Below, piece by piece: positions 742 to 59,557 of a DNA stretch of 64,000 nt. The stretch lies in the NCBI GenBank assembly GCA_002269645.1, contig NIVC01000255.1:620001-684000 (forward strand). The letters run 5' to 3'. Under the pieces are notes generated by a model. The model was not told the DNA's origin, did no database searches, and was given only the letters and a program-made list of their open reading frames with translations. Source of the DNA: Macrostomum lignano. Taxonomy: Eukaryota. Position 1 is the first letter of the stretch, and every line of letters begins with the position of its first letter. The position numbers and the translations under genes are program-made.

Positions 742-5620
<4,879 letters not shown>

Positions 5621-5714
5621 TCCTTGTGCTCTTTTACCTTGGGGTTGCGATAGGGGCCTCGCGGCCTATTCGCGGCGCCTGCGCCCCCCGTCAGTAGTAA
5701 GTAAGTAAGTAAGT

Positions 5715-5925
5715 AAGCCATAGGTTTTGGAGCTTCTTTTCTAGCTTGGTCATTTCTGCGGCAATGTTCTGGCTAGTCTTGTTGATGAGGTGGCATAGGA
5801 CAGAGAAAGTGATGAGACCAAGTCTAGGTCTTAGGTTATCTTTTAAACCTCGAATTTGACTCTGCAGGGTCTGATGTTTGCGGCGATTGAGTTTAAGTTG
5901 CTTTCGAATAAGTGTTTCGTGTTGC
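5715..5925 (-). mobile_element. Penelope-like element, upstream part of the inverted N-terminal fragment
   Basis: Reads QHETLIRKQLKLNRRKHQTLQSQIRGLKDNLRPRLGLITFSVLCHLINKTSQNIAAEMTKLEKKLQNLWL, in frame with 122-316. Confidence 0.65.
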
Positions 5926-6406
5926 TAGTGTTGCTATGAGATTCACGAAACACGTCGTCTCTGACAAAATCGCCAATCAGCCTAGCGCTAAAGCCGATCA
6001 CATCGATCTCAACGAACCAACTCTTGTCCTCCCTTTCTTTGGCTATCCTTATCAACTTTTCAAAAATAAAATCTGCAAATTATTCCGCAACTCGCTTAAT
6101 TGCAACGTCCGTGTCATCTTTCGTTCTGCTAAGGTTGGCAACTTTGTCGGTCAGTTGAAGTCAACAGGTGTTCCCTGGGGCCTGTGCTATAAAACAAGGA
6201 GTCAGGAGCTAGGAGTAAGGAGTGAGGAGTGTCCTAAGTCAAGGAGTAATCGTGAATTGCGTTCAATAAACACCAGGAGCAAAGAGTTCATTTAGGAGTT
6301 GCGTTAGAAGTGCAAGCTAGGAGTGGATTCCAAGGAGAATGGAATGTTACGTAATTTTTCTAGGAGTGCTAGGTGTGAGCGTGCTATACATACAACACTC
6401 TTAAAA

Positions 6407-7407
6407 ATGCACACCTTAAGAAGTTCTCCGAAGGAGTAGCTCTTCAGTGTAGTTAGCCATCAATGCAGCCATCACAAAGTTTTATTTGTTAGGGAAGTAT
6501 TCGCGCGCAAAGACGTCTTGTTTGGTTCGTTTTCAAGCATATTAACGAAACAAGTAAAAATTGAGGCATGGAAGGCTGCGATTGAAGCATGCCGATAGCA
6601 ACACGGCTTTGATCCGACGCCTCCGAAGAAGGACTGGAAGTATGTAAGAGACAAGGTGTGGGGAAATCTGAAGAGCAATGTCTGGGTGAGTCTGTTAGTA
6701 CACAATGCTTATTGTTGACGAATATAAATTGTTATGAAAATTAGTTACGCACTATCTAAAGCCATAACTGTAGATTTAATTAAATAACTTAGAAGCGCAG
6801 ACTATGGAGGAAATAATGGCGTAACTCTCCATGCCTCATACCTACTCGTCACGGTGGTTCAGAATAATTAAATACTAATACTGTTTTTCATTTCTAGGCA
6901 AAAAGGGACAAATTCCAACAAACTGGCGCCGAGGGTAAATCAGCAGCCAAGTGGATGGAGTTGGAAGCCGTTGTACTAGACACTATTGGCCGCGATTCGC
7001 CAACCGTTGAAGGTCTGGATGTGCCGGAGAGTGTCGAGGAACAGACTAGGCAGAAGCAACAGCTCAGCGGTAAGGCCGTCTCAACGGAAATGACTGCTAA
7101 TGCGTCGCAAAGTGAAATTTCCGAGCGACCAACTGCGAAGACAGTTACGAGTACATCTCGGATTGGTTGTAAGCGACAGCAGACTTCCCGAGATGACTAC
7201 GACGAGGAGTTTCGCCAGCTAAAAGTTACAAGACTGCGCTTGGACATTCGTGAAGCGGAGCTGCGCTGCCAGAACTTGGAGCTGAAGAACGAAAAACTGA
7301 TAAGAAAATTGCAATCTGCAGTGCAATTGCCGACTCCCAACGATGACCCCGAACAGCTAGCAGCCAGTTTGTTTGCATATGACAGTTGGAACATGCAATC
7401 GAAGTAG
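6407..7407 (+). pseudogene. Harbinger Myb/SANT-like DNA-binding protein gene; exons 6407-6685 and 6898-7407; two premature TAG stops in exon 1
   Basis: KDVLFGSF...KIEAW...DWKYVRDKVWGNLK, then after a GT-AG intron AKRDKFQQTGAEG...ELEAVVLDTIG..SPTVEGL. This is the usual Myb_DNA-bind_5-like layout. Confidence 0.75.
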
Positions 7408-7915
7408 TAGACTTTTTACTCTACTATGAAATGAAACAGAATGAAAATCTAAACAGGCATTGCTGAGAACAGTTTGATATGTACTGTGTGTGTCGAGGGA
7501 TACAAGCGCATCTCATCCTACAAACGCATGTTTAACATTTACGTTTAGCTGGTGTTCCTTGCATACTTTTTTCTCTTTACCGAGTAAATACATGGTATTG
7601 TTTAATGAAAAGCAGTCAACCGAGTGATTGACGCGCATTTATGTAATCAATTATAGCCTTATCCTGTGAGTTAGCCTGCCCATCGGCCAAGCAGTCAATG
7701 AAGATGGAATAGGTTTGTTGGTGCTCAAAAATATATTTCATGGATGAATACATTCGAATATGCTTCTGTAGAAAGGCTTTGTTGCGCTTTGTTGCATGCT
7801 TGTCTAATGTCAAACGAACTAAGTTTGTCTAATTTAGAGGAATTTAGTTTTCATCGTTGAAGTTTGAAGTACGCTCGTATAAGAAAATGTTCTACATCTA
7901 AAACAGCAAACACGT

Positions 7916-9084
7916 CTAGAAAAGTTGCACGATTTGGTTTCGTCGGTTATTGTTGTCAACCACAATGCCATCCTGGTCGTCGTCCATGGTGTCCAGCAGT
8001 TGTGCAGGAGCTTCGAGTTCGAGGTACGGCTGCCTATTTTGAAGCGCCAGGTTGTGCAGCACGACACAGCACCGAAAAATATTTGCAGCGAAAATTGGTC
8101 GAACCTGCAGTGGACGCAGTAGACAACGCAATCGCTGCTTAAGAATGCCGATGGTGCATTCTACGATGCTTCTTGTGGCCTTGTGGGCCTCATTGAAACG
8201 GCGCTCCTGATCACTCTGTGGATTCAACAGCGGTGTAATGAGGTAGTCGTCGTTCCAGTAGCCGGAGTCTGCAAAAAGAAGGCCGCCAGGAACAGGACGC
8301 CATCCGCTTCTTAGACGCTGGGCGACGTGCGAATTGCGAAAAACTCTGGCATCGCTTACCGCACCCGGCCATCTAGCAGTCGCGAAGTAGATTTTGTAAT
8401 CAGGGCCACAGACAAGCATGGCGTTGATGGAATGGCGACCATGGCGGTTGAAATATTGCTCTTCATTTATCGCTGGTCGAAAAATCTCAATGTGCGTTCC
8501 GTCCACACAGCCGATCACGCACGGGAAGTTGGCTGTCAAGTTTTTGTTACAGACAACTGAATAGAACGACAATAAATCAAGACTCACGTATAGCCGTACA
8601 AAATACTACTATGAGCGTACTTTAAAGTATTCCTATTTATAGACATCGTTTTACACTCACCTCTGGCTTGAAATCCCTCAACAACTGCTTGAAAATCGGT
8701 AGGAAATTGAACGACATCAAAGTATATAGTGTCATTTACCGCCGCGACAAATCGATGAACTGTGTTAAACACAGTACTCTTTGAGACGCCATGAGCATCA
8801 CCAACTACTTTGTAGTCCGCTCCGGTAGCTAGGAAACGAATTGATAGCCTGACGTGCTGCTCGGGTGTCAATGCATGGTTCCGACGAGAAGGATGTTCAA
8901 TAAGATGCCGAATTCTTTCAGTGAGATGAGAAAGCTGCTGCTCTGTTAGCCTAAAGCGAGATTGCGTTTCCAAATCGCCCTCAAAGAAGTTTATTCGTTC
9001 TTTGAAGCGTCTGGGTCGACGAACTTCGCGTTCGAAGTCAGAATCTGAGTCAGAAAGCATTATACTCCTAGGAACTCTGTGCAT
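7916..9084 (-). CDS. Harbinger DDE transposase (HARBI1-like, about 346 aa); exons 9084-8661 and 8532-7916
   Basis: Motifs SRFRL, LRFLATG-like SIRFLATG, GVSKSTV, FPCVIGCVDGTH, FNRHGRHSINAMLVC, WPGAVSDARVF, ADSGY, VECTIGILKQR. A phase-1 GT-AG intron gives an open frame. Confidence 0.9.
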
Positions 9085-9910
9085 CAAATTCGGCCCTTGA
9101 ACTCTTGACTAGGAGTAGAAGGGCGGAGCAATTTCTTACTTGTTTATTGAACGTGCACGCCTAGAAATGGCTCCTAGCTGTTCTAAAAACACTCCTTACT
9201 CCTTGCAAAAACTCCTAGGTTTATTGAACACTACATACTTTAATTAGCACTCCTAAGTTCATTTAGGAGACTCCTTGGCTGATTAAGAGTCTCCTTACTC
9301 CTAGCTAGGACTCCTAGTGTTTATTGAACAGAAAAACTGACTAGGAGCAAGGAGCTAGGATGCTCTTGAAGAATTAGGAGTCAAGAGTGTTTTATAGCAC
9401 AGGCCCCTGTACTCTTCGTGCTGGTGTCGTTTATCAGTTCAACTGCTCTGATGACCAGAGCGTCTCCTACGTGGGGAAGACAAAAAGGCACCTGCACACT
9501 AGAATCAGGGAGCACTGGCTGAAACCGTCGGCTATCCAAAACCATCTCTTAGAGTGTAATAGTTGCTCCAACTGCAAACCCAAGGAGCGTTTCAACGTCA
9601 TTGATCAATGTTCTTTTGACTCCAAACTCCAGATACTTGAAGCGCTGTACATTAAAGCGCATTCCCCCAACCTCAACATTCAACTCCAACACAGTGGCGA
9701 GGGACAAGTTCTCCGTGTGTTCTGAGGGAGGGGGAATGCGCTGTACATTATATACTTCTAACTACGAGCTATATCGCTATCATTCCGTCCCTAAACTTTG
9801 CCTCTCGACTTTTGTACTAACAAACCTGTACTTCAAATATTGATTGAATTTACACCCCAAAATTTTGTATTTATTTACTGCCGATCTCACTTGTTTCTTT
9901 CGCTCAAAAA

Positions 9911-9951
9911 TAAACCTGAAGATGCACAGTATCGTGCGAAACGCGTCGTTC
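9911..9951 (+). ncRNA. Minimal type I hammerhead ribozyme motif in the Penelope 3' end
   Basis: AAAC-CTGAAGA(9916-9922)-T-GCAC agtatc GTGC-GAAA-CGCGTC-GTT: conserved core, 4-bp stem II, palindromic ACGCGT stem III, GUC cleavage triplet. Sits about 190 nt after the GIY-YIG stop. Confidence 0.75.
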
Positions 9952-10794
9952 AATCAAATTAATTTAATGTTGATTTTTGCCTTACTATTCATCTTACTTG
10001 CCAAGCAAGCAAATTTACCTGAAATTTAGTCGAGTGTGGTGTCAAATTGTAGCCCATCGGATGCCCAATGAAACGACGCAAGACACTCTAGAAAAACCCC
10101 TGTTAACAGGTACTTTTTACCTGTGAATTAAAAAACGGCCCTATTGGGGGTACAAACTTCGAAGTCGAAAAAAAGAATTTTTGCGGACCGATTTTTCTGC
10201 ATTTTCAATATTGTTTAGCCGAACAGCTGAAGTTACACCGGTCATACGCCATTATGGCTGGAAAATTCGTATTTTTGAGAAAATTGGCTCCAAATTTCGA
10301 GGCCATTTTTAGGCAAACTTTGGGCATACTTTTGCTAATAACTCTGCATTGGCAAGGCCTAGAGACTCAAGTTTGGTGTCTAAAAACAGCAATATGGATG
10401 CACTATGCAACTAAATCAGTTTAGAATGCTGATTTTTAGTTTAACAGGTCTCAATACCTGTTTGATTACCTCTCGGAACAGGTGAAAATGCATAATTCGG
10501 CGCCGAGCAGCTGCAAAAATTGTTAATATAGTTTGAAAATGCGTTAGATAAATGCGTTTTGATGTTGTGGGTGTAACAACATGCGACTTGCATTTTTAGG
10601 TGAAGGCGTTGCGATGCAGTGAGCAGAAAGGTGTGAAAAAGCAGCAAAAATGGTAGAAATGGCTGCTATTAGCGATTTTCGATATAAAAGGCGTGTACTG
10701 TAGGCCTATCTGGTAAGCAATTTGTGGCTCAGTGGCTAAGCTAGTTGCCTAATATTGAGTGCTCCCCACACTCGGCGAGCCCCCCCTCCCACAT

Positions 10795-10965
10795 TACGCA
10801 ACCCCTATCCAACAACAACCTTAACAACAACAACCCCGACCTAACAACAACCCTAACAAGCCCTACCCAACAACAACCCCTACCCAACAACAACATCAAC
10901 CCTTTTAACAACCCCTACTTAACAAACAACAACCCCCTTAACAACCTTTACTACACAACAACCAA
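10795..10965 (+). repeat. AAC/AACCC-rich low-complexity tract
   Basis: Directly visible (caacaacaac, acccta) runs. Confidence 0.7.
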
Positions 10966-12422
10966 CGTGGATACTCCGCTTAAACCAAGTGGCTAATTGG
11001 CCCTCACACCATGTTTGAGTTTTACGTCCTATAAATACTCTAGTGGTACTTGGTGGGATAGCCTGCTGCACGAGACCGTCTCGTCGAGACTGAATTGTGC
11101 GCTATTTAATTTGGATATTTGGCGTAAGGTATTTAAGATTTGGAAATATTGGGCACTAAGATGTATTTCAGTAGTAAATATATACCTGCAATTTATATAT
11201 GTTTTATAAGTATTTTTATTAATTAATCTAAACAGTTATGTATAAACTTTGTTTAAATTAAATTATAATTATAGCCTACTACGCTTCTTAGTTCTTCATA
11301 TATCATAGCCATAAAAGATAAGAACACAATATAGCTTCTTAATTAGTTCTTAATTTGGGTTAAATAAATTGGTCATAGCCATGGCCAATATTAGGCAATA
11401 TTAGACAGCACCTAGACAATATTAGGTGCTCTAAGATCTTAACATTTATCCGCCTCCGCCGTATCTATATTGTGCATATCTTGCGCTTTTGTATCCCCTA
11501 ACCACCGTCTCGATTGAGTGCCAGCTTCAATAGCTAATTCATCCATTATCAAACCTGTATATTTTTGTATTACAAGTTTTTAATAAGTAAATATATGCGT
11601 ATTTGAATTTTACAAACTAAAGTAAATTACATCTGAAGAAATAAAACCCCAATGTTGTTCTACCAAATCCCCAAATGTTTGAATACGTTTCATGAGAATA
11701 GAGGTACAACTTACACAAAAAAGTTTGAAGCCATACACAAATAATGGGTATGCCATTTTCCTTGCCGACGCGTTAAGATTCCTGCGGGGTGATGTAGGGC
11801 ATTATGTATTTTACATGGACAATACTGCACACAGAACGAATCGGAAAGAATAAACATTAGGGCTCCTTGGATTCCTCGTTATTCACGTAATTAGTTATTA
11901 TATTACTAATGAATAATGAAGGAATACTAACATGCGAAATGAATTCACTGAAGCTCGTGCACATGCGACAACGTATAGCCTACCGTATATGCGCGACAAA
12001 GGGTCTACTGTTTGTTTTACCGCAGTAGTTCTGCGGGTATATAAATACCGCGCGCACCAATTTGAATCCCCGAGCTCTTGCATTGGCTCTCGTTTGCCTT
12101 GCATCTTAGCCCGGACTGTGCTCCAATATAGTTCTTATTGTGTTGTGTCGGCCCGGCCCGTAGTGCCTGATAATTACCTTAGTTCATGGCTAGTGATTAG
12201 TACTCAATATGAGTCTTAGTTTGAGCAAAGCTCCTAAGCATTGAGATCAGTTAAATAAGCCTGAATCTTAGCTCTAAAAAACTGTGTTTAGTAAGGGCAC
12301 AGGAGGTCGAGCTTATATTTGTGTTTTGTTAATCAATTAATTGTTAAGTCTTTTATTATTTCTGCTGGTGCGCTAGTTTATTTATTTATTCAATTATCGT
12401 TCAATAATTGGTTCAACGTTAA

Positions 12423-12839
12423 CGTTCAACAATAATCGTTCAACAAGGACAAAAGGCGGTTATTCTCGACCGCTGCCTCGGGTCGGCTCGAGCATTTCAA
12501 GACGTACTACACCGTCAAGGCTCACTGTCTGACGCCGAATGGCCGATTTCTCAGCGCCAACTAGCCGTCCTCGAAGCGACTGGGGTGCCCTTTACCGGCG
12601 CGAACATGACCCTTATTTACTTGCGCATTGAACCCGAGTTGGCCATTCAGCGCATAGCCCAGCGCGGACGCACCGGTGAGGAGACGGGCATCTACCTGGA
12701 CTATCTACGATCACTAGACGAGACGTTTACACGCCACTACCAGGACTACTCGAGCGTGCACGCGATTCTAATCCGGTCGGATACATCTACGACTGATCTA
12801 GCCTATCTTGTTGGTGGCATCATTCGGCGTGAGCTCTGA
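12423..12839 (+). pseudogene. Deoxynucleoside kinase (dNK/TK2 family) fragment lacking the N-terminal P-loop
   Basis: ILDRCLGSARAF..LHRQGSL...LIYLRIEPELAIQRIAQRGRTGEETGIYLDYLRSL mirrors the dNK ERS..SAR.F and LIIYLR.SPE...RI..R.R.EE...L.YL motifs. In-frame stop at 12420, and no GxxGxGKS upstream. Confidence 0.82.
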
Positions 12840-12949
12840 CATTCTCTTGATAATAACGACCTACTGTAGTACACCTGCATAAATTCAAAAGATTCTCTAA
12901 AGTAGAAAAAATACCGCCTACCAAGACCCGCGACGAAGGCAAAATTTCC

Positions 12950-14333
12950 ATGCGTACCCAACGATTTTTTTGTTTATCACGCTGCTACTTAAAACGCCTA
13001 ATGCAGCGTCTAGACATCACGAGCTTCAATCAGCTGATAAGCGAAGATCTGCGCGATAAAATCAAACTTGGACAGTTTGTCCTACTCGATTCTAAAACAA
13101 ACCGTGTTTGCGCTTGAAAAAGTCGGTAATTTTTTAATTACCCGCCGTTTCCAGCAGATCGTAGACGGTGGGATGCACCAACAGCTGACCTCTAACAGGC
13201 AGTCCACAAAAAAATTGGACTGCAAGTTCAATGGGGCCGAAGGCCGAATATTACGTGAAGCTTGTTGACCGCCGAGAGGAAGAGCTGCTCACAGGCGAGC
13301 AGATTACAGCAGTCTTTCAGATAAAAGACGCTGTGCTGGCAGAAGGGAGATCAACCAAGAACAGGTAAGTTAAATTTTTCCCAATGCTTTTTATGTCGAG
13401 TTATAAAAGTTTTATCGCGCTTAATATGACACTGGCATTCAAAATGGCACTAGGATAAATATCCTAGCATTCAATTGCACTGGCATTCAATATGGCACTG
13501 GGATTCAAAATGACACTGGCATTCAATATGGCACTGGGATTCAAAATGGCACTAGGATAAATATGGCGCTGGCATTCAAAATGGCACTAGGATAAATATG
13601 GCGCTGGCATTCAAAATGGCACTAGGATAAATATGGCACTGGGATTCAAAATGGCACTGGCATTCAATATGGCACTGGGAGTCAAAATGGCACTGGCATT
13701 AAAAATGGCACAAGGATAAATATGGCGCTGGTATTCAGAATGGCATTGCAAATTTTATTAGCTCAGAAATTACAGAAATCTAACACAGCTCAGAAAATTA
13801 CCTCTAAATAAATAAATACCTCTAATTCCATCCGCACAGGACGTTGGCATGGTTATCTGTTTTGGTGATGGAAATGCCAACCGCCAAGGCGTAGCCTCGA
13901 CCTGCCTCATCTCTGAGGCCCGGCGCTGGCTCAAAGCACCTAACGAGCCGTTAAAGGTGCAAAGTCACAAGTCCAACGCCAAGCATGGGTCGGCCTGGGC
14001 TAGCGTCGACCCTGCTGCGACCTGCTCATGCAACTGCTGGCCCAGCGCTTCGCTGAGCGTCCAAAGGACGATGACCTGGCGCTCGTGTTTCCTTACAGGT
14101 ATTTTGATAGACTTTTATCAATATCGAGAAAGATATTCTACTCTGCTCAGGAACGTTACCGTTTCAAAGTTTCGGCAATGGTTGGAAGTCTGTCAAACTG
14201 CTCTGCGGAGGAACAGCGGCTCATGGCTGACCACCAGAATCATACCGAAGGTGTGCAGCGCCAATTTTACCAGGTAAAATCGCTAAATTTGCTAAATAAT
14301 TGTCACAGAAGACTTCTGAAACGACAAAAATGA
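12950..14333 (+). pseudogene. Degenerate tyrosine-recombinase-like gene with an intron (13365-13839) and several frameshifts
   Basis: Ordered catalytic-like motifs: GNANRQGV (R), KVQSHKS..KHGSA (K), RYRFKVSA (R), MADHQNHTEGVQRQFYQ (H...Y). Donor CAG|GTAAGT and acceptor CACAG. Confidence 0.6.
13426..13745. repeat. About 19-bp minisatellite (AAATGGCACTGGCATTC / ATATGGCACTAGGATA variants) inside the YR-like intron
   Basis: Directly visible tandem units. Confidence 0.85.
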
Positions 14334-14512
14334 CATTTTAAGCGTAAAATTGGATGCCTTAGCAACTAAATAATCCTGAATAAAAACTAAATTCAATACA
14401 CTGAATAGCTGCATATAACATAGGTTCAGTCATTAAAGCTGCGCATTTGAACCCTTGCACCAATGTACGAATGTAGTTTACATCATTATGAGTATTATAT
14501 CGCCTAGCTAGA

Positions 14513-14869
14513 AAGCGACCGCCAGCTCGAGCTCCAGCCGATAGTGCAGCCAAGCGTCAGAAAATTTAACCTGGATCGCTTGTACTAGGTTACTGGCCAA
14601 CAGATGGAGAAAACTGGTGGCCGGCGATGGTTTGCCTACCCCGGCGCGGAATAAACTGCACCAAGGGCTTCTGCTCGAAGAAAATTCACGTGCAATTTTT
14701 CGATGAGCCTCCTTCTAGCGCGTGGCTACACCAGTGGCAGTTCGCCAGCGGAACAGAGGCGGCTCCAAAAAATGCTTCTAAACAGCTCTACCAAGCTTAT
14801 TAACGCATGGCAGAGGCCAGCAAATTGGGACTTGACTACCGCCTAGAAACTGTACTATCAAAAATGTAA
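14513..14869 (+). pseudogene. PWWP-domain coding segment with two in-frame stops (missed by the ORF track)
   Basis: KRPPARAPADSAAKRQKI*PGSLVLGYWPTDGENWWPAMVCLP...KIHVQFFDEPPSSAWL...LYQAY*RMAEA. WWPAMV and HVQFFD..S.AW are diagnostic of PWWP. Confidence 0.8.
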
Positions 14870-15834
14870 TCTTGTAAAGCTGCAATGTGAATGCTTATAC
14901 TATACTACGCTTATCTATGCTGTCCGTCAAAACTTCCGGAACCCTTGCTACGATGTCTTCTAGCGGACATAATTTCAGTCCGTTTCAATTGTAACTTGAT
15001 TCAAATGAAAGCTGCGGATCTCAGCTCCATGATGTGGTCAAGAAAAAGTTTATTCGAAGGAGTGTGTGAACAGGCCAGTGTTATGTACATAAAGCTGATA
15101 GAGCCCTGACCAGTCAACTTGGATTCGTCCCAATGAGTCAGACCCAACGCTTTGTACTATTCTGCTTTTAGGGATAGCCTAGCCCCGCGCAATACGCCTG
15201 GATCCACTCGAGCACACAGAGACTCCGCGCCTGTAACTATTCGATCAGCGTAACGCCGCCGCCAGTAACACGCCAGTAAACCCAGCTAACATGCTACCAC
15301 CCGGCAGGCATCCCCCTCATCAACGGACCTTGGGAAGTAGGATGGATTTCGCCTACCCGGGTTGGCACTTTCCTACCTTCTCCCCATTCTCTGTTCATGC
15401 TGGGGGTCCCTCTGTGGCAGTCAACTGCCGGTTCTGCCCAGTGTCTAGCGTCTGTTGAATCATCATCAACCCCACTTCTTAGCCTTTTTTCAATTAGGAG
15501 GTCTGCGGTTCCCCCAACTTCTCCCCCCCCCGCGCCCCGTTATAAAGACCGACCTTCAGTCTCCCTCTACATCGTTCCCTCCCAAAGCTCCCAGCTTCAC
15601 TAAATCAGCCGTCCGCTAGCTTTACACCTTAATTTCAATATTCTGCAATCGTCCACCAACATGTATTCTCCGACGAGCTACGCCGCTTTCTGATCCCAAC
15701 TCCGAGACCGCGAACCCCTATGGCTACCTATCTCCAACCTACCTGATCATCTCCATCACCTCTCGCTAGCCCCCAATTCTAATTCCATCTGCACCTTTCG
15801 TTTAATCCCGGAGGTTGATCCTTACGATTTTAGT

Positions 15835-16371
15835 TTGTCCAGCCCTATCTTCAATTTTCCGTTCCCCTTTTACCATCTTCGCCACCATTACCAAGCCGTT
15901 GCCCAAATCGTCCACTCGGCTTGTGGTGACACCGTGTTAGACCAGGACGATGAGGAAGAATTGGCGCGCTTAGACAAGAGCGATCTGCGAATCCTAGACG
16001 GACTGTTGTCCTGGTACGCCCTACTCCCGGCGAACACCACCCGGAGGTCTGAGCGCGCCATCCAGAATACTGTAACCTACATCTTGAGAGGCTCGAATGA
16101 TAAGCCGACGGCCCTCTACCTGATGGCTCGCCTCCTGACAAGGTTGCCGAACCTACGCACCTTCGTCTGGAGAGTCGTTTTGGACTACCAAGAGCTCGCA
16201 CCCCTCCTTCACTTGGAGCTGGTGGTCGCGGGCACACGCCCGGATCAACTGGCTAAGGATAATGAAGCTCTTCGCTCCTACGTCGCCGTCGACATCGGTT
16301 CACTCGCCAAGCCGCCCTTCTCCCCGCCCAGCCTAGCTCACCTGACCCAAATGGCCTTCCACCATACGTGA
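15835..16371 (+). CDS. Orphan helical ORF (178 aa), no family recognised
   Basis: Stop-free, protein-like composition, but has a TTG start and no recognisable motif. Confidence 0.3.
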   Translation: MSSPIFNFPFPFYHLRHHYQAVAQIVHSACGDTVLDQDDEEELARLDKSDLRILDGLLSWYALLPANTTRRSERAIQNTVTYILRGSNDKPTALYLMARLLTRLPNLRTFVWRVVLDYQELAPLLHLELVVAGTRPDQLAKDNEALRSYVAVDIGSLAKPPFSPPSLAHLTQMAFHHT

Positions 16372-16954
16372 AGAGTTACTAGGGGTTTCCCCCTCCACGA
16401 AAACCTCTGCAGCCAGGTGGAAAAACTCCCGCCCGCCTACCGCCGCCTGCTTGTCGGCTCATACCAGTCCCGCGTTGACGTCCTTAAACACTTTTAAATA
16501 CCTTTACTGACACCGCTATATTATTATACTACTTTAACTTTAATATTCTACTCCAAATAATTTTCCAATTATAAGTGCAACGAATTTTATCTCGCTCTCT
16601 CAGTAGCGGTCTCACAAAATTGATAAAATAAAAACACAAAAAATATAGACCGCCTTTCTTCGTTCTGTCCTTTTTCTCTTTTTATCAACGACGCTTGACA
16701 CAGAGGGCTACTAGTAGCATAGAGAGTAAAAACGTGGGCCCACGTGAAGCCACCCAGCTGTGGCGGCCACTAATTCGGTAGTGGCACTCAGTCGTTAACC
16801 CGGCCACACAAGCTGTGCCCGAAGAGCTGGTCGGAGATCGCAAATCGGCGATTCCGGTTAAAAGGTCGCACAAGCTGCGACGGTCGCCCTGTCGCAACAT
16901 TCATTCCTGGCTGGCAACTCATTATACATCACAGTTCGTGCACCGAACTCACGT

Positions 16955-17125
16955 AATAAGCCCACAAACGCACCTGTAGCACCCGCTATATCGTCACGAA
17001 ATAAGCCCACAAACGCACCTGTGGCACCCGCTATATCGTCTCGCAATAAGCCCACAAACGCACCTGTGGCACCCGCTATATCGTCTCGCAATAAGCCCAC
17101 AAACGCACCTGTGGCACCCGTCGTA
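16955..17125. repeat. 45-bp tandem repeat (about 3.7 copies); minus strand encodes GATGAFVGLLRDDIA units
   Basis: AATAAGCCCACAAACGCACCTGTGGCACCCGCTATATCGTCTCGC repeated. Confidence 0.9.
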
Positions 17126-17656
17126 CCGTTTCCTAGCAAGCCCACACCGTAGTCTGTGGCCCTGTCGTATAGCCTATTTTGCAATAGATGCTCGTATTCG
17201 TTTACAAAGAAGTCTACAGGCTCTACAGCCTACAATTTTGATCAATACGCTGATACGCACATATTCTGTTTGATTATCGTCTGATACTACTTAAGCAGTA
17301 GTCACTCGTGTACATACATGTTAGAATTCTCATTACACGTCATACCGATATTACAAAATGATGACCAAAGGGATAGTCTAGATAAACACGACCCAGATGC
17401 TATAATGCTTCTTTTGATAGCAGGATCCTGTATGCTCTTACGCTCTGGCCGACGAGCAGCATCACAATCCCCTACAGCTAAATCGCGCAAATTGCAACGA
17501 AACCCAGCGCCACCCGCTGATACAGACCAAGCACTTGACAGCACAACCTCGAGTACCCGACGACTTTCCGGCTCTACTCCCGACGTAACTACTTCACCAA
17601 CTGCTTGGCCCTCTGGTTATTCACCACCAGCCTATATGCTTGTACCGGAAATCAGC

Positions 17657-18560
17657 ATGGACGCCAACCAGCTGCAAGAGCTCATCCAAAACCTTACACA
17701 GCAACAACAGCTGCAGCAACAGCAACAACTACAACAGCTTGGTGCCGCGCAGCCAGCCCAAAGACCAACGTCTTCAGTATCATCATCGACGATCAACGAA
17801 ATCCGCGAAGCCCTGAAGGATATCGATCAACTGCACGGCTTCATGGAGTTTGACCTGGCCACCCGCACTTTCAACTTGGATGATGATACTAAGCTTCGAA
17901 TTTTCCCGCGATTCTTAAACGATTTGTTCAAAATCTAATTCTTCAATTTAATGCCCGCGCAACAAGGTACCTACACGGGCATGCTTGAGCACATGCGTGC
18001 CCGCATTCCAGAGCTGACAAACGGATCAACCTCACTTCTGCAAAAAATTGCAAATCGAAGACAGCAGCCCGGCGAATCGTTCACTCAATACTTCAGCGAC
18101 GTCTGCAAAAAAACTACGCACGGTCTATCCCGCCATCGCATCGGAACCAATTCCCGACGGCCTCAACGAACCACCCAACCAGGCTGTAATCCGCCAACGG
18201 GACAATGACTTCACAACGACACTGATTCCAAACATTCTAAACGGGACGTTACCCTACATTCGCCGAGAACTGATGCGCATCCCAATCCAAACGGAACAAG
18301 AATTACTGAGCCAGGCCATCTGAGCAGAACAAATTGGAGATAATACTAAAGCCACAGCCTCCACCGAAATGGCCGAGCTCACAAAGCGGCTAGCCGCCCT
18401 AGAATCCGGAAACCAGACTACAAAACCCACACTTGCCGCTGTCCAGACGCCTATGCCTCAACCACCTAGACAACCTTCCAGTCGCAAATGTTACAACTGC
18501 AACAAGGTCGGCCACATTGCCAAAGACTGCCGTCAAATGAGATTTGACCAGAACCCTTAA
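17657..18560 (+). pseudogene. gag: Ty3/gypsy-type gag relic with CCHC zinc knuckle; no pol follows
   Basis: MDANQLQELIQ..., RRQQPGESFTQY (QxPGES capsid motif), CYNCNKVGHIAKDC. Broken by stops and a frameshift. Confidence 0.75.
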
Positions 18561-38541: not shown

Positions 38542-40001
38542 CCGATGCCACAAGTGCAGAAGAAAGCTATCTAGTAGGCTCTCGTATTGAATTCTCTGCA
38601 GACTGCACCATGCAGGCCGATCTGCAATGGCGCTGGACCTACAAGCCTCCGTCTGGCTCGGCGGTTCTCTGGCGCAGCGCCTGCGCAATCAGCGACTTGC
38701 CAGGACTTGACTGGCTGGTGCCTGACGCTGCTGAACACCGACTGGTCTACTTCTCATCTGCCGGGCTGCCCCAATGGGACTATCAGGTCCGACTGGGATT
38801 TGACTTCTCTCCTGCTGGAGTTTGTCAGGTGAGTTTTCCAGTTTCCAGGAAACATATATGAGTGCGGACCTGAATTAGAGACTAGTTTATGTATACCCCC
38901 CCTGAGGACATCGTCCCTTCCCAGGTCATCAAACCTTCACAAGACATCCCACGAGGGCATTGCACCTTCCATATGTATGCACAACGCATTAATTGGAATT
39001 TATTATAGTTTTAGAACTATTATATAGTAGCTAACAAAGAATGAAAAACATTTTTTTTAATAAACTACATGTCGCAGCTTCTGACCTCAGCCTTGACATC
39101 TCAGCAATTCTCCCTGTGAGCCTTGACATCTCAGTAATTCCCCCTGTAAGCCTTGACATCTCAGCAATTCTCCCTGTAAGCCTTAACATCTCTGCGATTC
39201 CCTTTGTAAGTTTTGGCATCTCAGCAATTCCCCCTGTGAGCCTAAAAATCTCTGCAATTCCCTCTGTATTCCCTAATATGTATGAATTTGTGCGCGTAGT
39301 TGAATTATTGTCTTTGCCCTCCCACACTCCTGTTCCCAATCAAGGTGACCAACCATGCGCTTTGGGTCACCGACTGGCGCCTCGGTCGCATCGAATGTCG
39401 CAGCGTTTTCGGCCACTCGCTGGGCCGCGCGCCGCCTCTGCCTGAAGGCGCCTGTCGCTCCCCAGCAGACATCTGCTCCACCAGGGAGGGCCACCTGCTG
39501 CTCACCGACCTGAGCTCCAGTAGGCTCTACAGACTCGACGCTGAAGGACGTCACTTGGCCACGATCGAGCTGGGCAAAGGCGACCGACCGTTAAGACCCA
39601 GCTACGTCGACTGTTGCCATGACAACGGCTTCATAGCCGTGTCAGACATTGAGAACGGCAGGGCCGCAGTGCTGAATCCACGAGGCGACCTTCTCGCCTT
39701 CCTGTGGGCCGCCAGCACCGAGGACGAGCCGCAGCAGCCATTCGGTCTGAGATTCGACGCCTCTGGACGTCACGTGCTGCTCTGCGACTCCGGCGCGCAC
39801 CGGGTGGCGCGGCACAGCCTGGAGGGCGCCTTCGTTGACGCGCCAATCAGCGGCGGGCAAATCAAGCCGGAATCTGCGGAGACCGCAGCCTGGAGACCGC
39901 GCGGCCTGGCCTGCAGCGGCTCGCCAGCCAACGGAATTTGCGTGGTCGCCGCAGGTAGCCAAGGACGCGACAGTCTGCACTGCTTCGGCAGGTTACCATG
40001 A
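38542..40001 (+). CDS. NHL-repeat / six-bladed beta-propeller protein, last two exons (38542-38828, 39345-40001); 5' exons unresolved
   Basis: LWVTDW..GRI, PADICST.EGHLLLTDLSSSRL, PSYVDC.HDNGFIAVSDIENGR, PFGLRFDASGRHVLLCDSGAHRV, PRGLAC. Phase-0 GT-AG junction. Confidence 0.8.
39085..39275. repeat. 30-bp intronic minisatellite (AGCCTTGACATCTCAGCAATTCTCCCTGT)
   Basis: Directly visible tandem units. Confidence 0.9.
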
Positions 40002-41561
40002 CAACTGACTCCAACAGGCAAACCATGCACTGCCTAATTAAGTTCCTAATTGTTCTCAGACTAACCTGCGTGTGAATTCAAGCTTATTGTACTCGTACAG
40101 CAAAACGTCATAAAGTCAAAGCAAAGAAGGTAAATCCGAACGATTTTTCGAAAAACCTTTAAATGCTGGCGTTTTAAGCAAAAAATTACACTATCAAATT
40201 TTTTTAGACGTAAAAATAGAAATATTTTCTGACTCATAAAAACAAAATGCTCATTAAAATGTATACTATACATCTTAATTTTTGCATAAAATTTAAAATA
40301 TTGAAGCGATAAAAGCTGACAATTCAGCTTAATTAAGACCAGCATTTGAAAATCAACGATAATGATTATCCATTCTTTCTTTGTCATAAAGAAACAATTT
40401 CTACTCGTATGTTGATCGTGTACCTTTTCGTGTAAAGCCATGATTTTTTTCAAACCTTTTTCTAGTAAACTTATTGTACTGTATTCTTACTCCGTAGTAT
40501 TATAGATCTAAACAAACATTATAACTGCTATATTTTATTTTTAAAAAGGGTTTTCTTTCGTTGTAATTTTAATTTTAACATTTATAACATGTTTTAGACG
40601 CATCCGGCTATCGATTACTTTATACTCGTACAAACTATTGTTTTGCGTTAAATTTCCGGTGTTAAATGAACAAACATTGTAAATCTGGATAAAATTATCC
40701 TCTTTTAGTGTTTAGTGTCTACTTATATATTCGAAGAGTAGTGCAGCTTGGTAATAAAACTTGTCCCGCCTCGTTTGCATTTTTATTTTATTCTAAATAG
40801 AATTGCTCTATATAGAGGTTCACTTTTATGAGTGGCGCACGCTTGGCATATTGGCGAGGCTATGCTAAAGCTGTTCTCTCAGGACAATGAAAAGAAAAAT
40901 GCAGAAAAAACGTACACTGCAGCGGAGCGAAGCGCTATTGCAAGGACCTCTGGATTCTTGGATTGGAAAAAACCCTAAAATAATCTTGCATCGGTTGGAT
41001 GTCCATCTAGACTCCAAAATTTACATGAATACTCATACAAGCATTCTCTCATATTCTACATGCGTTTTGGGGTTGGCCCTCATGTCTGGCAACCCAATGG
41101 GTCAATTTTGGCACAAAAACACCAAATTACCGTTGAGCTAATTCAACTCCCGGATCTTTCATCAGGATCCTTCAATATTATTCACTGGATTGCAGAGAAT
41201 TTGCTAGACTGATTTACTTATCGAACGGATCAAGTTCGTCTTTCAGTCCAGATCTCGCTGCATGAGGTCCATGGACATTATTTGCACTTCCAGCGAATTA
41301 CGGTCGGGGGTGTAGGGGTAGGCTAGGTTGGGGGCAGTAATTCAAAGAAGCCAACCGACCCTCCCACAATTCGCACAGCTTCGAACGAAATGAAAAGCAC
41401 ACTAAAATGCACCTCCATGCTCATCATCACCCGTATAGCTGCGCAGATGCATAAACAAAATTCTGGCCTGAGAGTAAAAAAACCAACGGAGTCCCTGGTA
41501 GCGGTTAGGCAGACTGTAGAAGAAGCTCTCTCGCTCTCAAAGCAGCAACAACGCTTCAGCA

Positions 41562-43316
41562 ATGCCAGACTTTGCAGCGGCAGAAGAGTCGCCTGCGGCA
41601 GGCGATTCGAACACATTCCGAGGCATCGAAGACATGACGGAGGAGCAGGTGAACGATATGAAGGAGGTGTTCGGTCTGTTTGACAAAGACAACTCTGGCT
41701 CCATCACTACTCAAGAGTTGGGAACTGTGATGCGAGCTCTGGGCCAGAATCCCACGGAGGCCGAGCTGCAGGACATGATTGGGGAGATCGACATCGATGG
41801 GAATGGGATTATTGATTTTGAGGAGTTCTGCATCCTCATGGGAAAGAGGATCAAGGATACGGACACGGAGGCGGAGCTCAAAGAGGCGTTCAGGGTGAGA
41901 AAAATTGCAATTCTGTGTTTGAGTACTGGCTAGGTATTTTGAGACTTGAATTGGAGCTTATGACTGGCGCTTAGTGACACTCAAATCGGCGCTTACTGAC
42001 ACTCAAATCAGGGTTTACTGACACTCAAATCAGGGCTTACTGACACTCAAATCAGGGCTTACTGACACTCCAATCAGTAGTGCTCACTGACACTCAAATC
42101 AGTAGTGCTCACTGTCACTCAAATCAGTAGTGCTCACTGTCACTCAAATCAGTAGTGCTCACTGTCACTCAAATCAGTAGTGCTCACTGTCACTCAAATC
42201 AGTAGTGCTCACTGTCACTCAAATCAGTAGTGCTCACTGTCACTCAAATCAGTAGTGCTCACTGTCACTCAAATCAGCGCTCACTGTCACTCAAATCAGT
42301 AGTGCTCACTGTCACTAAAATCAGTAGTGCTCACTGACACTCAACTCAGGGCTTACTGACACTCAACTCAGGGCTTACTGACACTCAACTCAGGGCTCAC
42401 TGACACTCAAATGGCAGTCAGGAAGACAATGAAAATTATTTTACAAGTTATTGATACAAAGTTTTTTATCTTCCATTGCTCATTTTCTTGAGTAAACAGC
42501 GAGAGTAACAATACTCTAGCAGTAATGCAGAGATGCTTGGGTATCTAATTAGAATTAAGTTTCAACGTGACATGAGTACGAAGTGCCAGTAAGCATTATT
42601 TGCGTAAATCATGCATCCTATGGTGCGAAGCAGATCAGCGTAAACGCGTCCGACTCAAGGCCGTTGTACACCCTGTGTGAGCGGGTGCACGAGTGTTGTG
42701 CCTGCGTACAGTATTGGCGCCCTTGAATGTGATCAGAAGTCAGCAGAATGGGCCGAATTGCAGTCAGCGCTGGTTGTAGAACGATGGCGCCATAGGCGCC
42801 TGCAGCCCTCGTGCAGCCCTCGTTAAAAAATTACATTCTGATTATTATAGAAAACTATAAAAATGGTAAACATTACTATATTGCTGGCGCCCCTGGTGCT
42901 GGCGCCCCTGGTGCTGGCGCCCCTGGTGCTGGCGCCCCTGGTGCTGGCGCCCCTGGTGCTGGCGCCCCTGGTGCTGGCGCCCCTGGTGCTGGCGCCCCTG
43001 GTGCTGGCGCCCCTGGTGCTGGCGCCCCTGGTGCTGGCGCCCCTGGTGCTGGCGCCCCTGGTGCTAAAGCTAAAGCGATATTGAATCAGTACACGGCGAT
43101 CTCGCACCTCAACCTGTATCCATATAATCAAATTGCCAGGTGTTCGACAAAGACGGCAACGGCTTCATCTCCCCTGCCGAGCTCAAGGCGGTGATGTGCA
43201 ACCTGGGCGAGAAACTCACCGATGAAGAGGTGGAAGAGATGATTAAAGAGGCCGACATGAACGGTGACGGAGAGATTGACTTCCAGGAGTTCATGGCCAT
43301 GATGGCCAAGCAATGA
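41562..43316 (+). CDS. Calmodulin-like EF-hand protein (169 aa); exons 41562-41894 and 43140-43316
   Basis: Four canonical EF loops [48 protein letters not shown]; [14 protein letters not shown]; [10 protein letters not shown]. Phase-0 intron joins EAFR|VFDKD. About 20-aa N-terminal extension. Confidence 0.93.
41975..42412. repeat. 22-25-bp intronic minisatellite (CACTCAAATCAGTAGTGCTCACTGT)
   Basis: Directly visible tandem units. Confidence 0.92.
42883..43066. repeat. 15-bp GC-rich array GCTGGCGCCCCTGGT (about 12 copies) in the calmodulin-like intron
   Basis: Directly visible. Confidence 0.95.

Positions 43317-45385: not shown

Positions 45386-59557
<14,172 letters not shown>

What the first reader, a model, noticed from the sequence alone, without database searches (positions are those of the whole stretch)
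12423..14869. Decayed dNK - tyrosine recombinase - PWWP cassette: candidate large YR-mobilised or virus-like element
Seen: three co-oriented, closely spaced relics (dNK 12423-12839, YR-like about 12950-14333 with a spliceosomal intron, PWWP 14513-14869) lie inside a TE island, all with stops or frameshifts. Established: dNKs are typical cargo of large DNA viruses, YRs integrate DNA circles (Cryptons, DIRS, viral integrases), and PWWP reads H3K36 methylation. Inference: this is a fragment of a large intron-containing DNA element or endogenous virus whose boundaries may span about 10.7-17.3 kb. It does not fit a standard TE superfamily.
Basis: partly seen in the sequence, partly recalled or inferred. 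Interest (0 to 1): 0.75.

Follow-up and report, generated by a model that had tools for sequence, protein, structure and literature searches.

The report
Fused relics of two mobile elements
The three broken genes are real but come from two different mobile elements, likely joined by an old deletion: the kinase is a scrap of a Polinton/Maverick virus-like element, and the recombinase plus PWWP domain belong to a separate Crypton-like DNA transposon family whose recombinase is predicted to carry its own chromatin-binding tail.

Summary
All three relics exist, but they are not one element. The dNK piece is the C-terminal part of a TBP-like+dNK gene of a ~21-kb Polinton/Maverick (AGTAGT termini, pPolB, ATPase, rve-chromo integrase, capsid). 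Among 72 genomic stretch sets, 12 hold this gene and 40 the recombinase; only the window holds both. The recombinase (YR fold supported) and PWWP belong to a separate multi-copy DNA transposon of about 6-9 kb with no RT or DDE gene. Its ends are G-runs of variable length, not a fixed target duplication, as expected for Crypton-type circle recombination. In three subfamilies GT-AG introns predict one zinc-finger-YR-PWWP protein; no RNA confirms this. The window copy is dead: 5'-truncated at 12979/12980, frameshifted, with a 1.69-kb internal deletion and no right end. The two near-identical copies elsewhere are duplicates of this same locus. The chimera is ordinary decay. The modest novelty is the YR-PWWP family itself: no Pfam YR or DUF3504 hit, and a non-autonomous derivative with 99-100% identical copies.

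The parts
10023..11390 (.). Unrelated multi-copy repeat; not part of either element
   Evidence: 79-89% matches in C2286, C662, C1636, C2395, none of which match the Polinton C362 or the YR element C46
11445..11632 (+). Non-coding scrap of the Polinton left arm
   Evidence: 75-90% to C273, C362, C297, C1391 about 1.5 kb inside the left TIR
11805..11857 (+). Second scrap of the Polinton left arm
   Evidence: 86-88% to the same copies, collinear
11858..12409 (.). Unrelated dispersed repeat
   Evidence: More than 20 hits at 73-91%; fetched copies do not match the Polinton
12449..12839 (+). C-terminal part of the Polinton TBP-like + deoxynucleoside kinase ORF; P-loop and TBP-like half missing
   Evidence: Pfam dNK 3.8e-15; 85% DNA identity to the 473-codon ORF of C362; that ORF hits TBP 8e-6 and dNK 7.8e-19
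12840..12979 (+). Polinton intergenic DNA after dNK
   Evidence: Continuous alignment to C362 up to 12979
12979..12980 (+). Fusion point between Polinton DNA and the middle of the YR gene; about 3 bp of microhomology
   Evidence: Genome hits split at query 580/581 into two contig sets; junction sequences compared
12980..13364 (+). Remainder of YR exon (core-binding domain); N-terminal zinc fingers lost; two frameshifts
   Evidence: 89-91% to C4637, C46, C2334; aligned to whole relatives
13365..13839 (+). GT-AG intron holding an 18/35-bp minisatellite (13423-13745)
   Evidence: same donor position in C46, C2334, C4637. Splicing is predicted, not shown
13840..14273 (+). YR catalytic exon (R, K, SKFR, H, Y motifs), several frameshifts
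   Evidence: the open orthologous exon of C2334 folds like XerA
14274..14499 (+). Start of the next intron
   Evidence: Phase-0 GT donor after FYQ, as in C2334
14500..14501 (+). About 1.69-kb internal deletion that removed a linker exon and the PWWP exon's acceptor
   Evidence: C46 oriented 11181 to 12868; the same 1687-bp skip stands in contigs of run X1
14500..14869 (+). End of the last exon with the MSH6/NSD-like PWWP domain; two premature stops
   Evidence: Pfam PWWP 1.9e-6; 92% to C46; best PDB sequence hit MSH6 PWWP, E 1.6e-6
14915..15102 (.). One arm of a high-copy inverted-repeat (MITE-like) element that cuts off the YR element's right end at 14918
   Evidence: Dozens of 188-bp hits, many as inverted pairs 0.4-0.7 kb apart; YR-element match stops at 14918
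15111..17670 (+). Separate repeat; in C4060/C2285 it lies about 6 kb upstream of a second, diverged dNK-bearing Polinton
   Evidence: 84-95% matches; pPolB, dUTPase, ATPase, penton, capsid and no YR in C2285. That it is part of that Polinton is not shown

Best explanation
The stretch is a dead chimera of two different mobile elements, a Polinton/Maverick fragment (11445-12979) and a Crypton-like recombinase transposon (12980-14918), likely fused by one deletion. SHOWN: each half matches its own family of copies, and the halves meet only at this locus. The Polinton carries its own rve-chromo integrase, pPolB, ATPase and capsid genes, with TBP-like+dNK and dUTPase as cargo. The second element has no RT, DDE or capsid gene; it holds a zinc-finger + core-binding + YR gene followed by a PWWP exon, and ends in G-runs. 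INFERRED MECHANISM of the living family: the YR excises the element as a circle by recombining its two G-run ends, then integrates it by crossover within 2-5 G of host DNA, so no fixed-length target duplication is left. Splicing is predicted to append the PWWP domain to the recombinase, where it would tether the enzyme to nucleosomes or DNA and bias site choice. INFERRED HISTORY of this locus: the YR element came to lie next to or inside a Polinton in a repeat-dense region; an end-joining deletion removed the right ~14 kb of the Polinton and the left part of the YR element; further deletions, frameshifts and a MITE-like insertion followed; the region was then duplicated.
For: Disjoint hit sets split at 12979/12980. 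dNK in 12 and YR in 40 of 72 stretch sets, both only in the window; all 11 other dNK sets have Polinton core genes; all 15 PWWP sets have YR. TIR-to-TIR Polintons C362 and C297 lack YR and PWWP. Gene set. The YR gene continues upstream in C46, C2334, C4637 with zinc fingers. C1950/C1205 share window flanks out to 41671 and differ by a 14-kb deletion from C255:618897 to 632850, so they are the same locus. Fold: model of a sister YR (pLDDT 84) has XerA on top (Z 12.5, 262 aligned, rmsd 13.7) and all 18 chains with Z>=8 are YR-superfamily or topoisomerase IB; the window subfamily's own exon gives XerA TM 0.58-0.60. Ends: 19 of 22 distinct left flanks have 4 or more G, three have 2-3; all 19 right ends read end in A plus 3 or more G, and 4 of 9 paired copies lack an identical 4-bp flank; the sister family has CCAT/CCCAT/CCCCAT direct repeats in 3 of 3 clean pairs. 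In-frame GT-AG paths from YR to PWWP in C2334, C527, C749.
Against: Foldseek E-values are weak (best 1.8e-3; 3.7e-2), and topoisomerase IB scores as high as XerA on the catalytic domain. The first His of H-x-x-R is replaced (S/T-x-F/Y-R). The genome search scores only top candidates, so copy sets are lower bounds, and stretches span only 10-40 kb. A second locus (C1167/C349) also has pPolB-like fragments of another family within 1-6 kb of a YR element. Five of the 9 end pairs were paired by orientation and distance without reading the interior. In C38 the splice path to PWWP could not be closed (a Gypsy integrase fragment lies between). One aromatic-cage position of MSH6-type PWWPs is Glu or His here (cage positions recalled), so H3K36me reading is doubtful. 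Three sister YR families (C903, C1545, C359) show no PWWP in the stretches held.
Confidence: 0.88

Rival explanations
1. One large YR-integrated virus-like element (a Polinton-like or midsize DNA virus using YR instead of rve integrase) once held dNK, YR and PWWP, and the window is its last internally deleted copy.
For: All pieces are co-oriented. The nearest Atlas clusters to the sister YR include viral ones, commonest Preplasmiviricota, one with Phage_integrase on 16% of members (score 0.96). A figure legend describes Meld19810 with YR plus adintovirus virion genes (PMC11071296). pPolB fragments lie beside a YR element at C1167/C349.
Against: The dNK donor has its own rve-chromo integrase and closes with a TIR without YR. 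The YR element has its own two ends 6-9 kb apart at many unrelated sites. The YR gene has spliceosomal introns, whereas intact Mavericks are reported intronless (PMC8097293). The junction cuts the YR ORF mid-domain.
Confidence: 0.05
2. The YR-PWWP element prefers Polintons or Polinton-rich heterochromatin as landing sites, so the adjacency is targeted nesting rather than chance before the deletion.
For: Window, C1167/C349 and C2344 (penton-like fragment about 7 kb upstream) put YR elements near Polinton-like debris; a chromatin-binding tail would give a means.
Against: Only 2 of 40 YR stretch sets hit a Polinton core protein. Flanks of the young derivative are mostly G-rich simple repeats. The window is full of many other TE kinds. 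No background rate was measured.
Confidence: 0.12
3. The PWWP is passive captured cargo or a separate small gene, not spliced to the recombinase.
For: No contig laid showed a splice joint from YR to PWWP was testable; PWWP is absent from three sister families; the C38 PWWP is very unlike the C46 one; the aromatic cage looks incomplete.
Against: PWWP is kept 1-2 kb downstream, same strand, in subfamilies whose YR exons are only about 45-73% identical; phase-compatible GT-AG paths exist in three of them.
Confidence: 0.25

Closest known systems
Polinton/Maverick (adintovirus-type) elements, for the dNK half
   Same: 5'-AGTAGT...ACTACT-3' termini and TIRs, about 21 kb, pPolB, packaging ATPase, penton-like ORF, rve integrase with chromodomain, double-jelly-roll capsid, protease-like ORF (definitions in PMC8097293 and PMC11071296 passages).
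   Different: All core genes on one strand in C362; cargo includes a TBP-like domain in one ORF with dNK, and a dUTPase. The window keeps only about 0.8 kb of it.
Crypton DNA transposons (CryptonF/S/A/I/V), for the YR half
   Same: YR as only enzyme, introns, no RT, short terminal direct repeats that look like microhomology rather than a TSD, non-autonomous derivatives (PMC3212892 and PMC13465315 passages). CryptonS termini are reported as TATGG; the sister family here reads ATGGGG on the minus strand.
   Different: Animal CryptonA/I are reported to have no C-terminal domain and no terminal repeats (PMC3212892 section 8); this family has N-terminal C2H2-type fingers, G-run ends and a predicted C-terminal PWWP. 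No DUF3504, GCR1_C or Phage_integrase Pfam hit at E<=1 for the catalytic part. CryptonV sequences could not be compared.
Tyrosine recombinases of Polinton-like viruses and virophages
   Same: Nearest Atlas feature neighbours include Preplasmiviricota clusters; PLVs commonly carry YR (PMC7805220 passages).
   Different: No alignment or tree supports descent; a scan of viral contigs with the sister YR found no relative; here the YR sits in a capsid-less, intron-bearing element.
Chromatin-guided integrases (chromodomain integrases; HIV integrase with LEDGF PWWP)
   Same: A chromatin-binding module coupled to the integrating enzyme (LEDGF role from abstracts; chromodomain analogy recalled).
   Different: Here a PWWP would be fused in cis to a tyrosine recombinase; binding and fusion are untested.

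Membership tests
Polinton/Maverick (donor of the dNK) | pPolB and rve integrase | tested here: met
   C362: DNA_pol_B_2 6.8e-21; rve 5.3e-7 (below gathering score) with Chromo 1.6e-5
Polinton/Maverick (donor of the dNK) | Capsid module: major and minor capsid, ATPase, protease | tested here: met
   440-aa ORF nearest to DJR-like clusters, score 0.98, PF21738 on 24-30% of members. ATPase, penton-like and protease-like ORFs named from motifs and position (recalled); no Pfam or PHROG hit for them
Polinton/Maverick (donor of the dNK) | TIRs with (AGT)2//(ACT)2 ends | tested here: met
   Both ends in C362 and C297, single ends in four more contigs
Polinton/Maverick (donor of the dNK) | 6-bp target site duplication | tested here: inconclusive
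   0 of 2 contigs with both ends show it, and both contain an N run; the left flank of C1431 equals the right flank of C362, which suggests mixed assembly of near-identical copies
   1 of 72 stretch sets, the window; C1950/C1205 are the same locus and lack the dNK
Crypton (YR half) | Tyrosine recombinase fold and catalytic residues | tested here: met
   first His of H-x-x-R replaced; scores moderate
Crypton (YR half) | No RT, no DDE transposase, no capsid inside the element | tested here: met
   ORF lists and tblastn of copies; the RT in C46/C321 belongs to an insertion absent from C2334
Crypton (YR half) | Short terminal direct repeats, no TSD, no true TIR | tested here: met
   G-runs of 2-6 at both ends; 4-6-bp repeats in the sister family. 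Short imperfect inverted motifs and inverted subterminal repeats do occur
Crypton (YR half) | Circular excision intermediate | not testable with these tools
   Needs circle-junction PCR or raw reads
CryptonA / DUF3504 | DUF3504-type YR, no C-terminal domain | tested here: not met
   No DUF3504 hit at E<=1 in any YR protein scanned; PWWP downstream
CryptonV | YR clade defined in Repbase; some families target microsatellites | not testable with these tools
   Only names and one sentence in print here; several young copies do sit in simple repeats
DIRS/Ngaro YR retrotransposon | RT/RNase H and split or inverted terminal repeats | tested here: not met
   No RT in C2334, C38, C73, C217, C359 elements

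The most novel reading that the evidence does not exclude
The YR half marks an undescribed, recently mobile clade of animal Crypton-like transposons whose recombinase comes from Polinton-like virus integrases, integrates circles at G-runs, and in one branch has gained its own PWWP chromatin reader: a tyrosine recombinase that steers itself by chromatin, with open-frame copies in a laboratory flatworm where Crypton transposition could be tested directly.
Probability: 0.3. Interest if true: 0.68.

Novelty: new variant of a known kind. Interest (0 to 1): 0.42.

Why it matters
The cassette as proposed does not exist, and that part is ordinary TE decay. What remains of value is the transposon family behind its right half. 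The circle-recombination model for Cryptons rests mostly on fungal genomics (PMC13465315 passages), and animal CryptonA/I were reported without terminal repeats or C-terminal domains (PMC3212892). Here many near-identical insertions give readable ends that fit crossover in a G-run, open-frame recombinases exist, and a PWWP tail is predicted. If confirmed it would be a testable animal Crypton-type system and an example of a chromatin reader fused to a tyrosine recombinase; searches found no paper describing that, though Repbase Reports and most subscription journals are outside the library.

Tried and rejected
Pfam and PHROGs do not recognise the YR (best Phage_int_SAM_1 E 0.49). PDB sequence searches found no YR. 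Homolog searches: none for the sister YR alone, none among longer proteins, one 99% match with the profile; only 4 distant unnamed relatives in the representative library, each a singleton on a 1.9-3.8-kb contig. Scans of viral contigs and metagenome contigs found no relative; these reach close relatives only. Expression: no RNA holder listed. Contigs of four runs each laid on C46 and C38 gave no joint between YR and PWWP exons; the YR exons were hardly covered in the guessed-RNA runs, so this says nothing either way. One GT-AG joint upstream of the C38 YR fits transcripts of the non-autonomous derivative. Rfam: 0 matches in 9900-17700. Rejected: C1950/C1205 as independent chimeric copies with RING cargo (the RING block lies 14 kb upstream in the window's own contig). 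Rejected: true TIR element with fixed TSD. Rejected: 10.7-17.3 kb as element bounds. Rejected: topoisomerase IB, since the model aligns to XerA, XerH and Cre over both core-binding and catalytic domains and a His precedes the Tyr. The pdb_via second look never ran. Linkage of 15111-17670 to the second Polinton was examined only at one duplicated locus (C4060/C2285) of six or so that hit. Earlier scan notes: none for this genome or sequence; three loosely related notes in other genomes were not used.

Full report
Setting. The window is G000:C255:620001-684000 of a 764-Mb assembly. A sister-family protein is 99% identical to an NCBI protein that its source labels Macrostomum lignano, so the host is very likely this flatworm. 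The region is dense in TE debris: non-LTR RT, Harbinger, Penelope-like GIY-YIG and Gypsy ORFs.

Observation. dNK (Pfam 3.8e-15) and PWWP (1.9e-6) are confirmed; the YR pieces get no Pfam hit. The intron 13365-13839 has GT and AG ends and holds a minisatellite. The dNK ORF is open but 5'-truncated. The YR exons carry several frameshifts and the PWWP exon two stops.

The pieces split into two families. A DNA search with 12400-13400 gave 35 matches. Apart from the window and two 99% copies, matches cover either query 50-580 or 581-1001, on different contigs. I fetched 10-40 kb around many hits and ran tblastn with 13 natural proteins. Of 72 stretch sets, 12 hold the dNK gene, 40 the YR, 15 a PWWP. 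dNK and YR co-occur only in the window. All 11 other dNK sets (10 contigs, one counted twice) hold Polinton core genes. All 15 PWWP sets hold YR. The sets were chosen from top-scored hits and include duplicates of one locus, so they are not a census.

The dNK donor is a Polinton/Maverick. In C362 a 473-codon ORF has a TBP-like domain (8e-6) and dNK (7.8e-19), followed by pPolB, dUTPase, an ATPase-like and a penton-like ORF, rve integrase with chromodomain, a 440-aa ORF and a protease-like ORF. The 440-aa ORF is nearest to double-jelly-roll clusters (score 0.98). Termini read AGTAGT...ACTACT, the commonest Maverick end motif (PMC8097293, passages). C362 and C297 span about 21 and 20 kb between TIRs with no YR or PWWP. 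Neither shows a 6-bp TSD, both contain an N run, and the left flank of C1431 equals the right flank of C362. The window keeps two left-arm scraps and the dNK tail at 76-90% identity.

The YR half is a separate element. In C46, C4637, C2334, C1433, C326 and C38 the YR gene runs on upstream of the window's junction into C2H2-type fingers, and 1.69 kb more lies between YR and PWWP. Four unnamed proteins and several in-genome sister families share the whole finger-plus-YR layout with R, K, x-x-x-R, H and Y conserved. A model of an intronless 750-codon sister (pLDDT 84) gives XerA, lambda Int, Tn1549 Int and Cre on top in Foldseek, best E 1.8e-3, and integrases in the viral library. In the wide search XerA leads (Z 12.5, 262 aligned, rmsd 13.7), and all 18 chains with Z>=8 are YR-superfamily proteins or topoisomerase IB. 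The open catalytic exon of the window's own subfamily (C2334) gives XerA at TM 0.58-0.60, E 3.7e-2. These scores are moderate, but consistent.

Ends and mechanism. The family's left end was read in 28 of 30 loci, giving 22 distinct flanks: 19 have four or more G before the first element bases, three have two or three. A non-autonomous derivative of about 9-17 kb, mostly a 118-bp satellite (about 105 copies in C4322), has 28 right-end matches at 97-100%. All 19 right ends that my motif found end in A plus three or more G; three fetched ends did not match the motif and were dropped. In 9 contigs with both ends the G-runs are 5/4, 5/4, 4/6, 4/4, 4/4, 2/4, 4/3, 4/3 and 3/3, so 4 of 9 lack an identical 4-bp flank. 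In C4878 the host tandem repeat resumes across the element with only GG shared. The interior was read for 4 of the 9. The intronless sister family (98-100% identical copies at unrelated sites) has 4-, 5- and 6-bp direct repeats in 3 of 3 clean pairs. This fits the Crypton model of circle excision and integration by microhomology (PMC3212892 passages; PMC13465315 passages). The circle itself is inferred.

PWWP. A profile from four element PWWPs hits 15 stretch sets, about eight distinct loci, always 1-2 kb downstream of YR on the same strand, and none in the C903, C1545 or C359 families. In C2334 a phase-0 and a phase-1 GT-AG intron lead from the catalytic Tyr exon through a 54-codon exon to a 437-codon exon whose only stop is terminal. 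In C527 and C749 one phase-0 intron does the same. In C38 I could not close the path. Both PWWP types are closest to MSH6, then NSD2/3 or LEDGF, but one cage aromatic (position recalled) is replaced. The fusion is therefore predicted, and H3K36me reading is uncertain. RNA data did not test it.

History of this locus. The junction joins Polinton intergenic DNA to mid-YR with about 3 bp of microhomology. The right end is cut at 14918 by one arm of a MITE-like repeat. C1950 and C1205 match the window at 97-99% from 12850 out to 41671, with gaps, and their left side matches C255 upstream of the window, so they are duplicates with a 14-kb deletion. The fusion happened once. The proposed 10.7-17.3 kb span comprises unrelated repeats; 15111-17670 lies upstream of a second dNK-bearing Polinton at C4060/C2285, which also lacks YR.

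Against my reading. pPolB-like fragments also flank a YR element at C1167/C349. The Atlas puts viral Preplasmiviricota clusters among the YR's nearest neighbours. A YR-bearing midsize virus with adintovirus virion genes is in print (PMC11071296, figure legend). These keep open a viral origin of the recombinase and a taste for Polinton-rich sites, but not a single dNK-YR-PWWP element.

Literature seen. Passages: PMC3212892 (plus section 8 whole), PMC13465315, PMC8869645, PMC11071296, PMC8097293, PMC7805220, PMC11244446, PMC4455052, PMC5753468. Listings and abstract starts only. No supplements were read; Additional file 1 of PMC3212892 and Repbase entries for CryptonV may already hold relatives. 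Searches for PWWP with tyrosine recombinase and for Crypton or Polinton in Macrostomum found no description of this family.

Verdict. Observation partly confirmed; single-element reading not supported; chimera of a known kind (Polinton) and a Crypton-like family that looks like a new variant. Confidence 0.88 for the chimera. Interest 0.42.

Noticed in passing
L014:3-1289 (minus), G000:C362: The Polinton carries a TATA-binding-protein-like domain in one open frame with the deoxynucleoside kinase (Pfam TBP 8e-6); the second subfamily (C4060/C2285) has both parts too. Unusual cargo for a Polinton by my recall; not searched in print.
   Followed up: partly
L213-L214 (G000:C4322:9419-24890) and about 28 similar loci: A very young non-autonomous derivative of the YR element, up to about 17 kb, made mostly of a 118-bp satellite. 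It implies recent YR activity and spreads satellite arrays around the genome. A spliced GT-AG joint in four runs fits its transcript.
   Followed up: partly
L096:4694-6943 (minus), G000:C903; also C73, C217, C33: Sister family of about 8.4 kb with an intronless open 750-codon zinc-finger-YR ORF, 98-100% identical at unrelated sites, no PWWP seen.
   Followed up: yes
L136 (G000:C359) and L139 (C1526): Another sister YR, a 1134-1143-codon open frame with long repeat tracts; right end not resolved.
   Followed up: partly
L263:6781-9123 (G000:C255:616781-619123), just left of the window: A multi-copy element with an rve integrase followed by two RING/zinc-finger ORFs, at least 13 copies at 98-100%; probably a Gypsy-type element with E3-ligase-like cargo.
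   Followed up: partly
L033-L034 (G000:C1391:127500-145500): Next to a Polinton lies a different virus-like block with D5-type primase-helicase, rve and phospholipase A2-like domains and a restriction-endonuclease-like ORF.
   Followed up: no
L024 (G000:C46, oriented 5328-8871): An Ngaro/DIRS-like RT + RNase H + YR retroelement is inserted in the left arm of the YR-PWWP element at this locus, absent from C2334.
   Followed up: partly
window 6898-9725: Harbinger-like transposase relics (7916-9108, minus; DDE_Tnp_4 8.6e-34) and a Penelope-like GIY-YIG tail (9378-9725) left of the finding.
   Followed up: no
window 11445-17670 and G000:C255:613653-614272: Three Polinton-related fragments lie in the same orientation within about 25 kb, as in a TE trap or piRNA-cluster-like region; speculation, untested.
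   Followed up: no
window 39300-41933 and 47795-49636: Host-like genes: an NHL-repeat-like ORF, a calmodulin-like ORF, and a C-type-lectin-like ORF with a repeat tail on the minus strand (names from recall of motifs).
   Followed up: no
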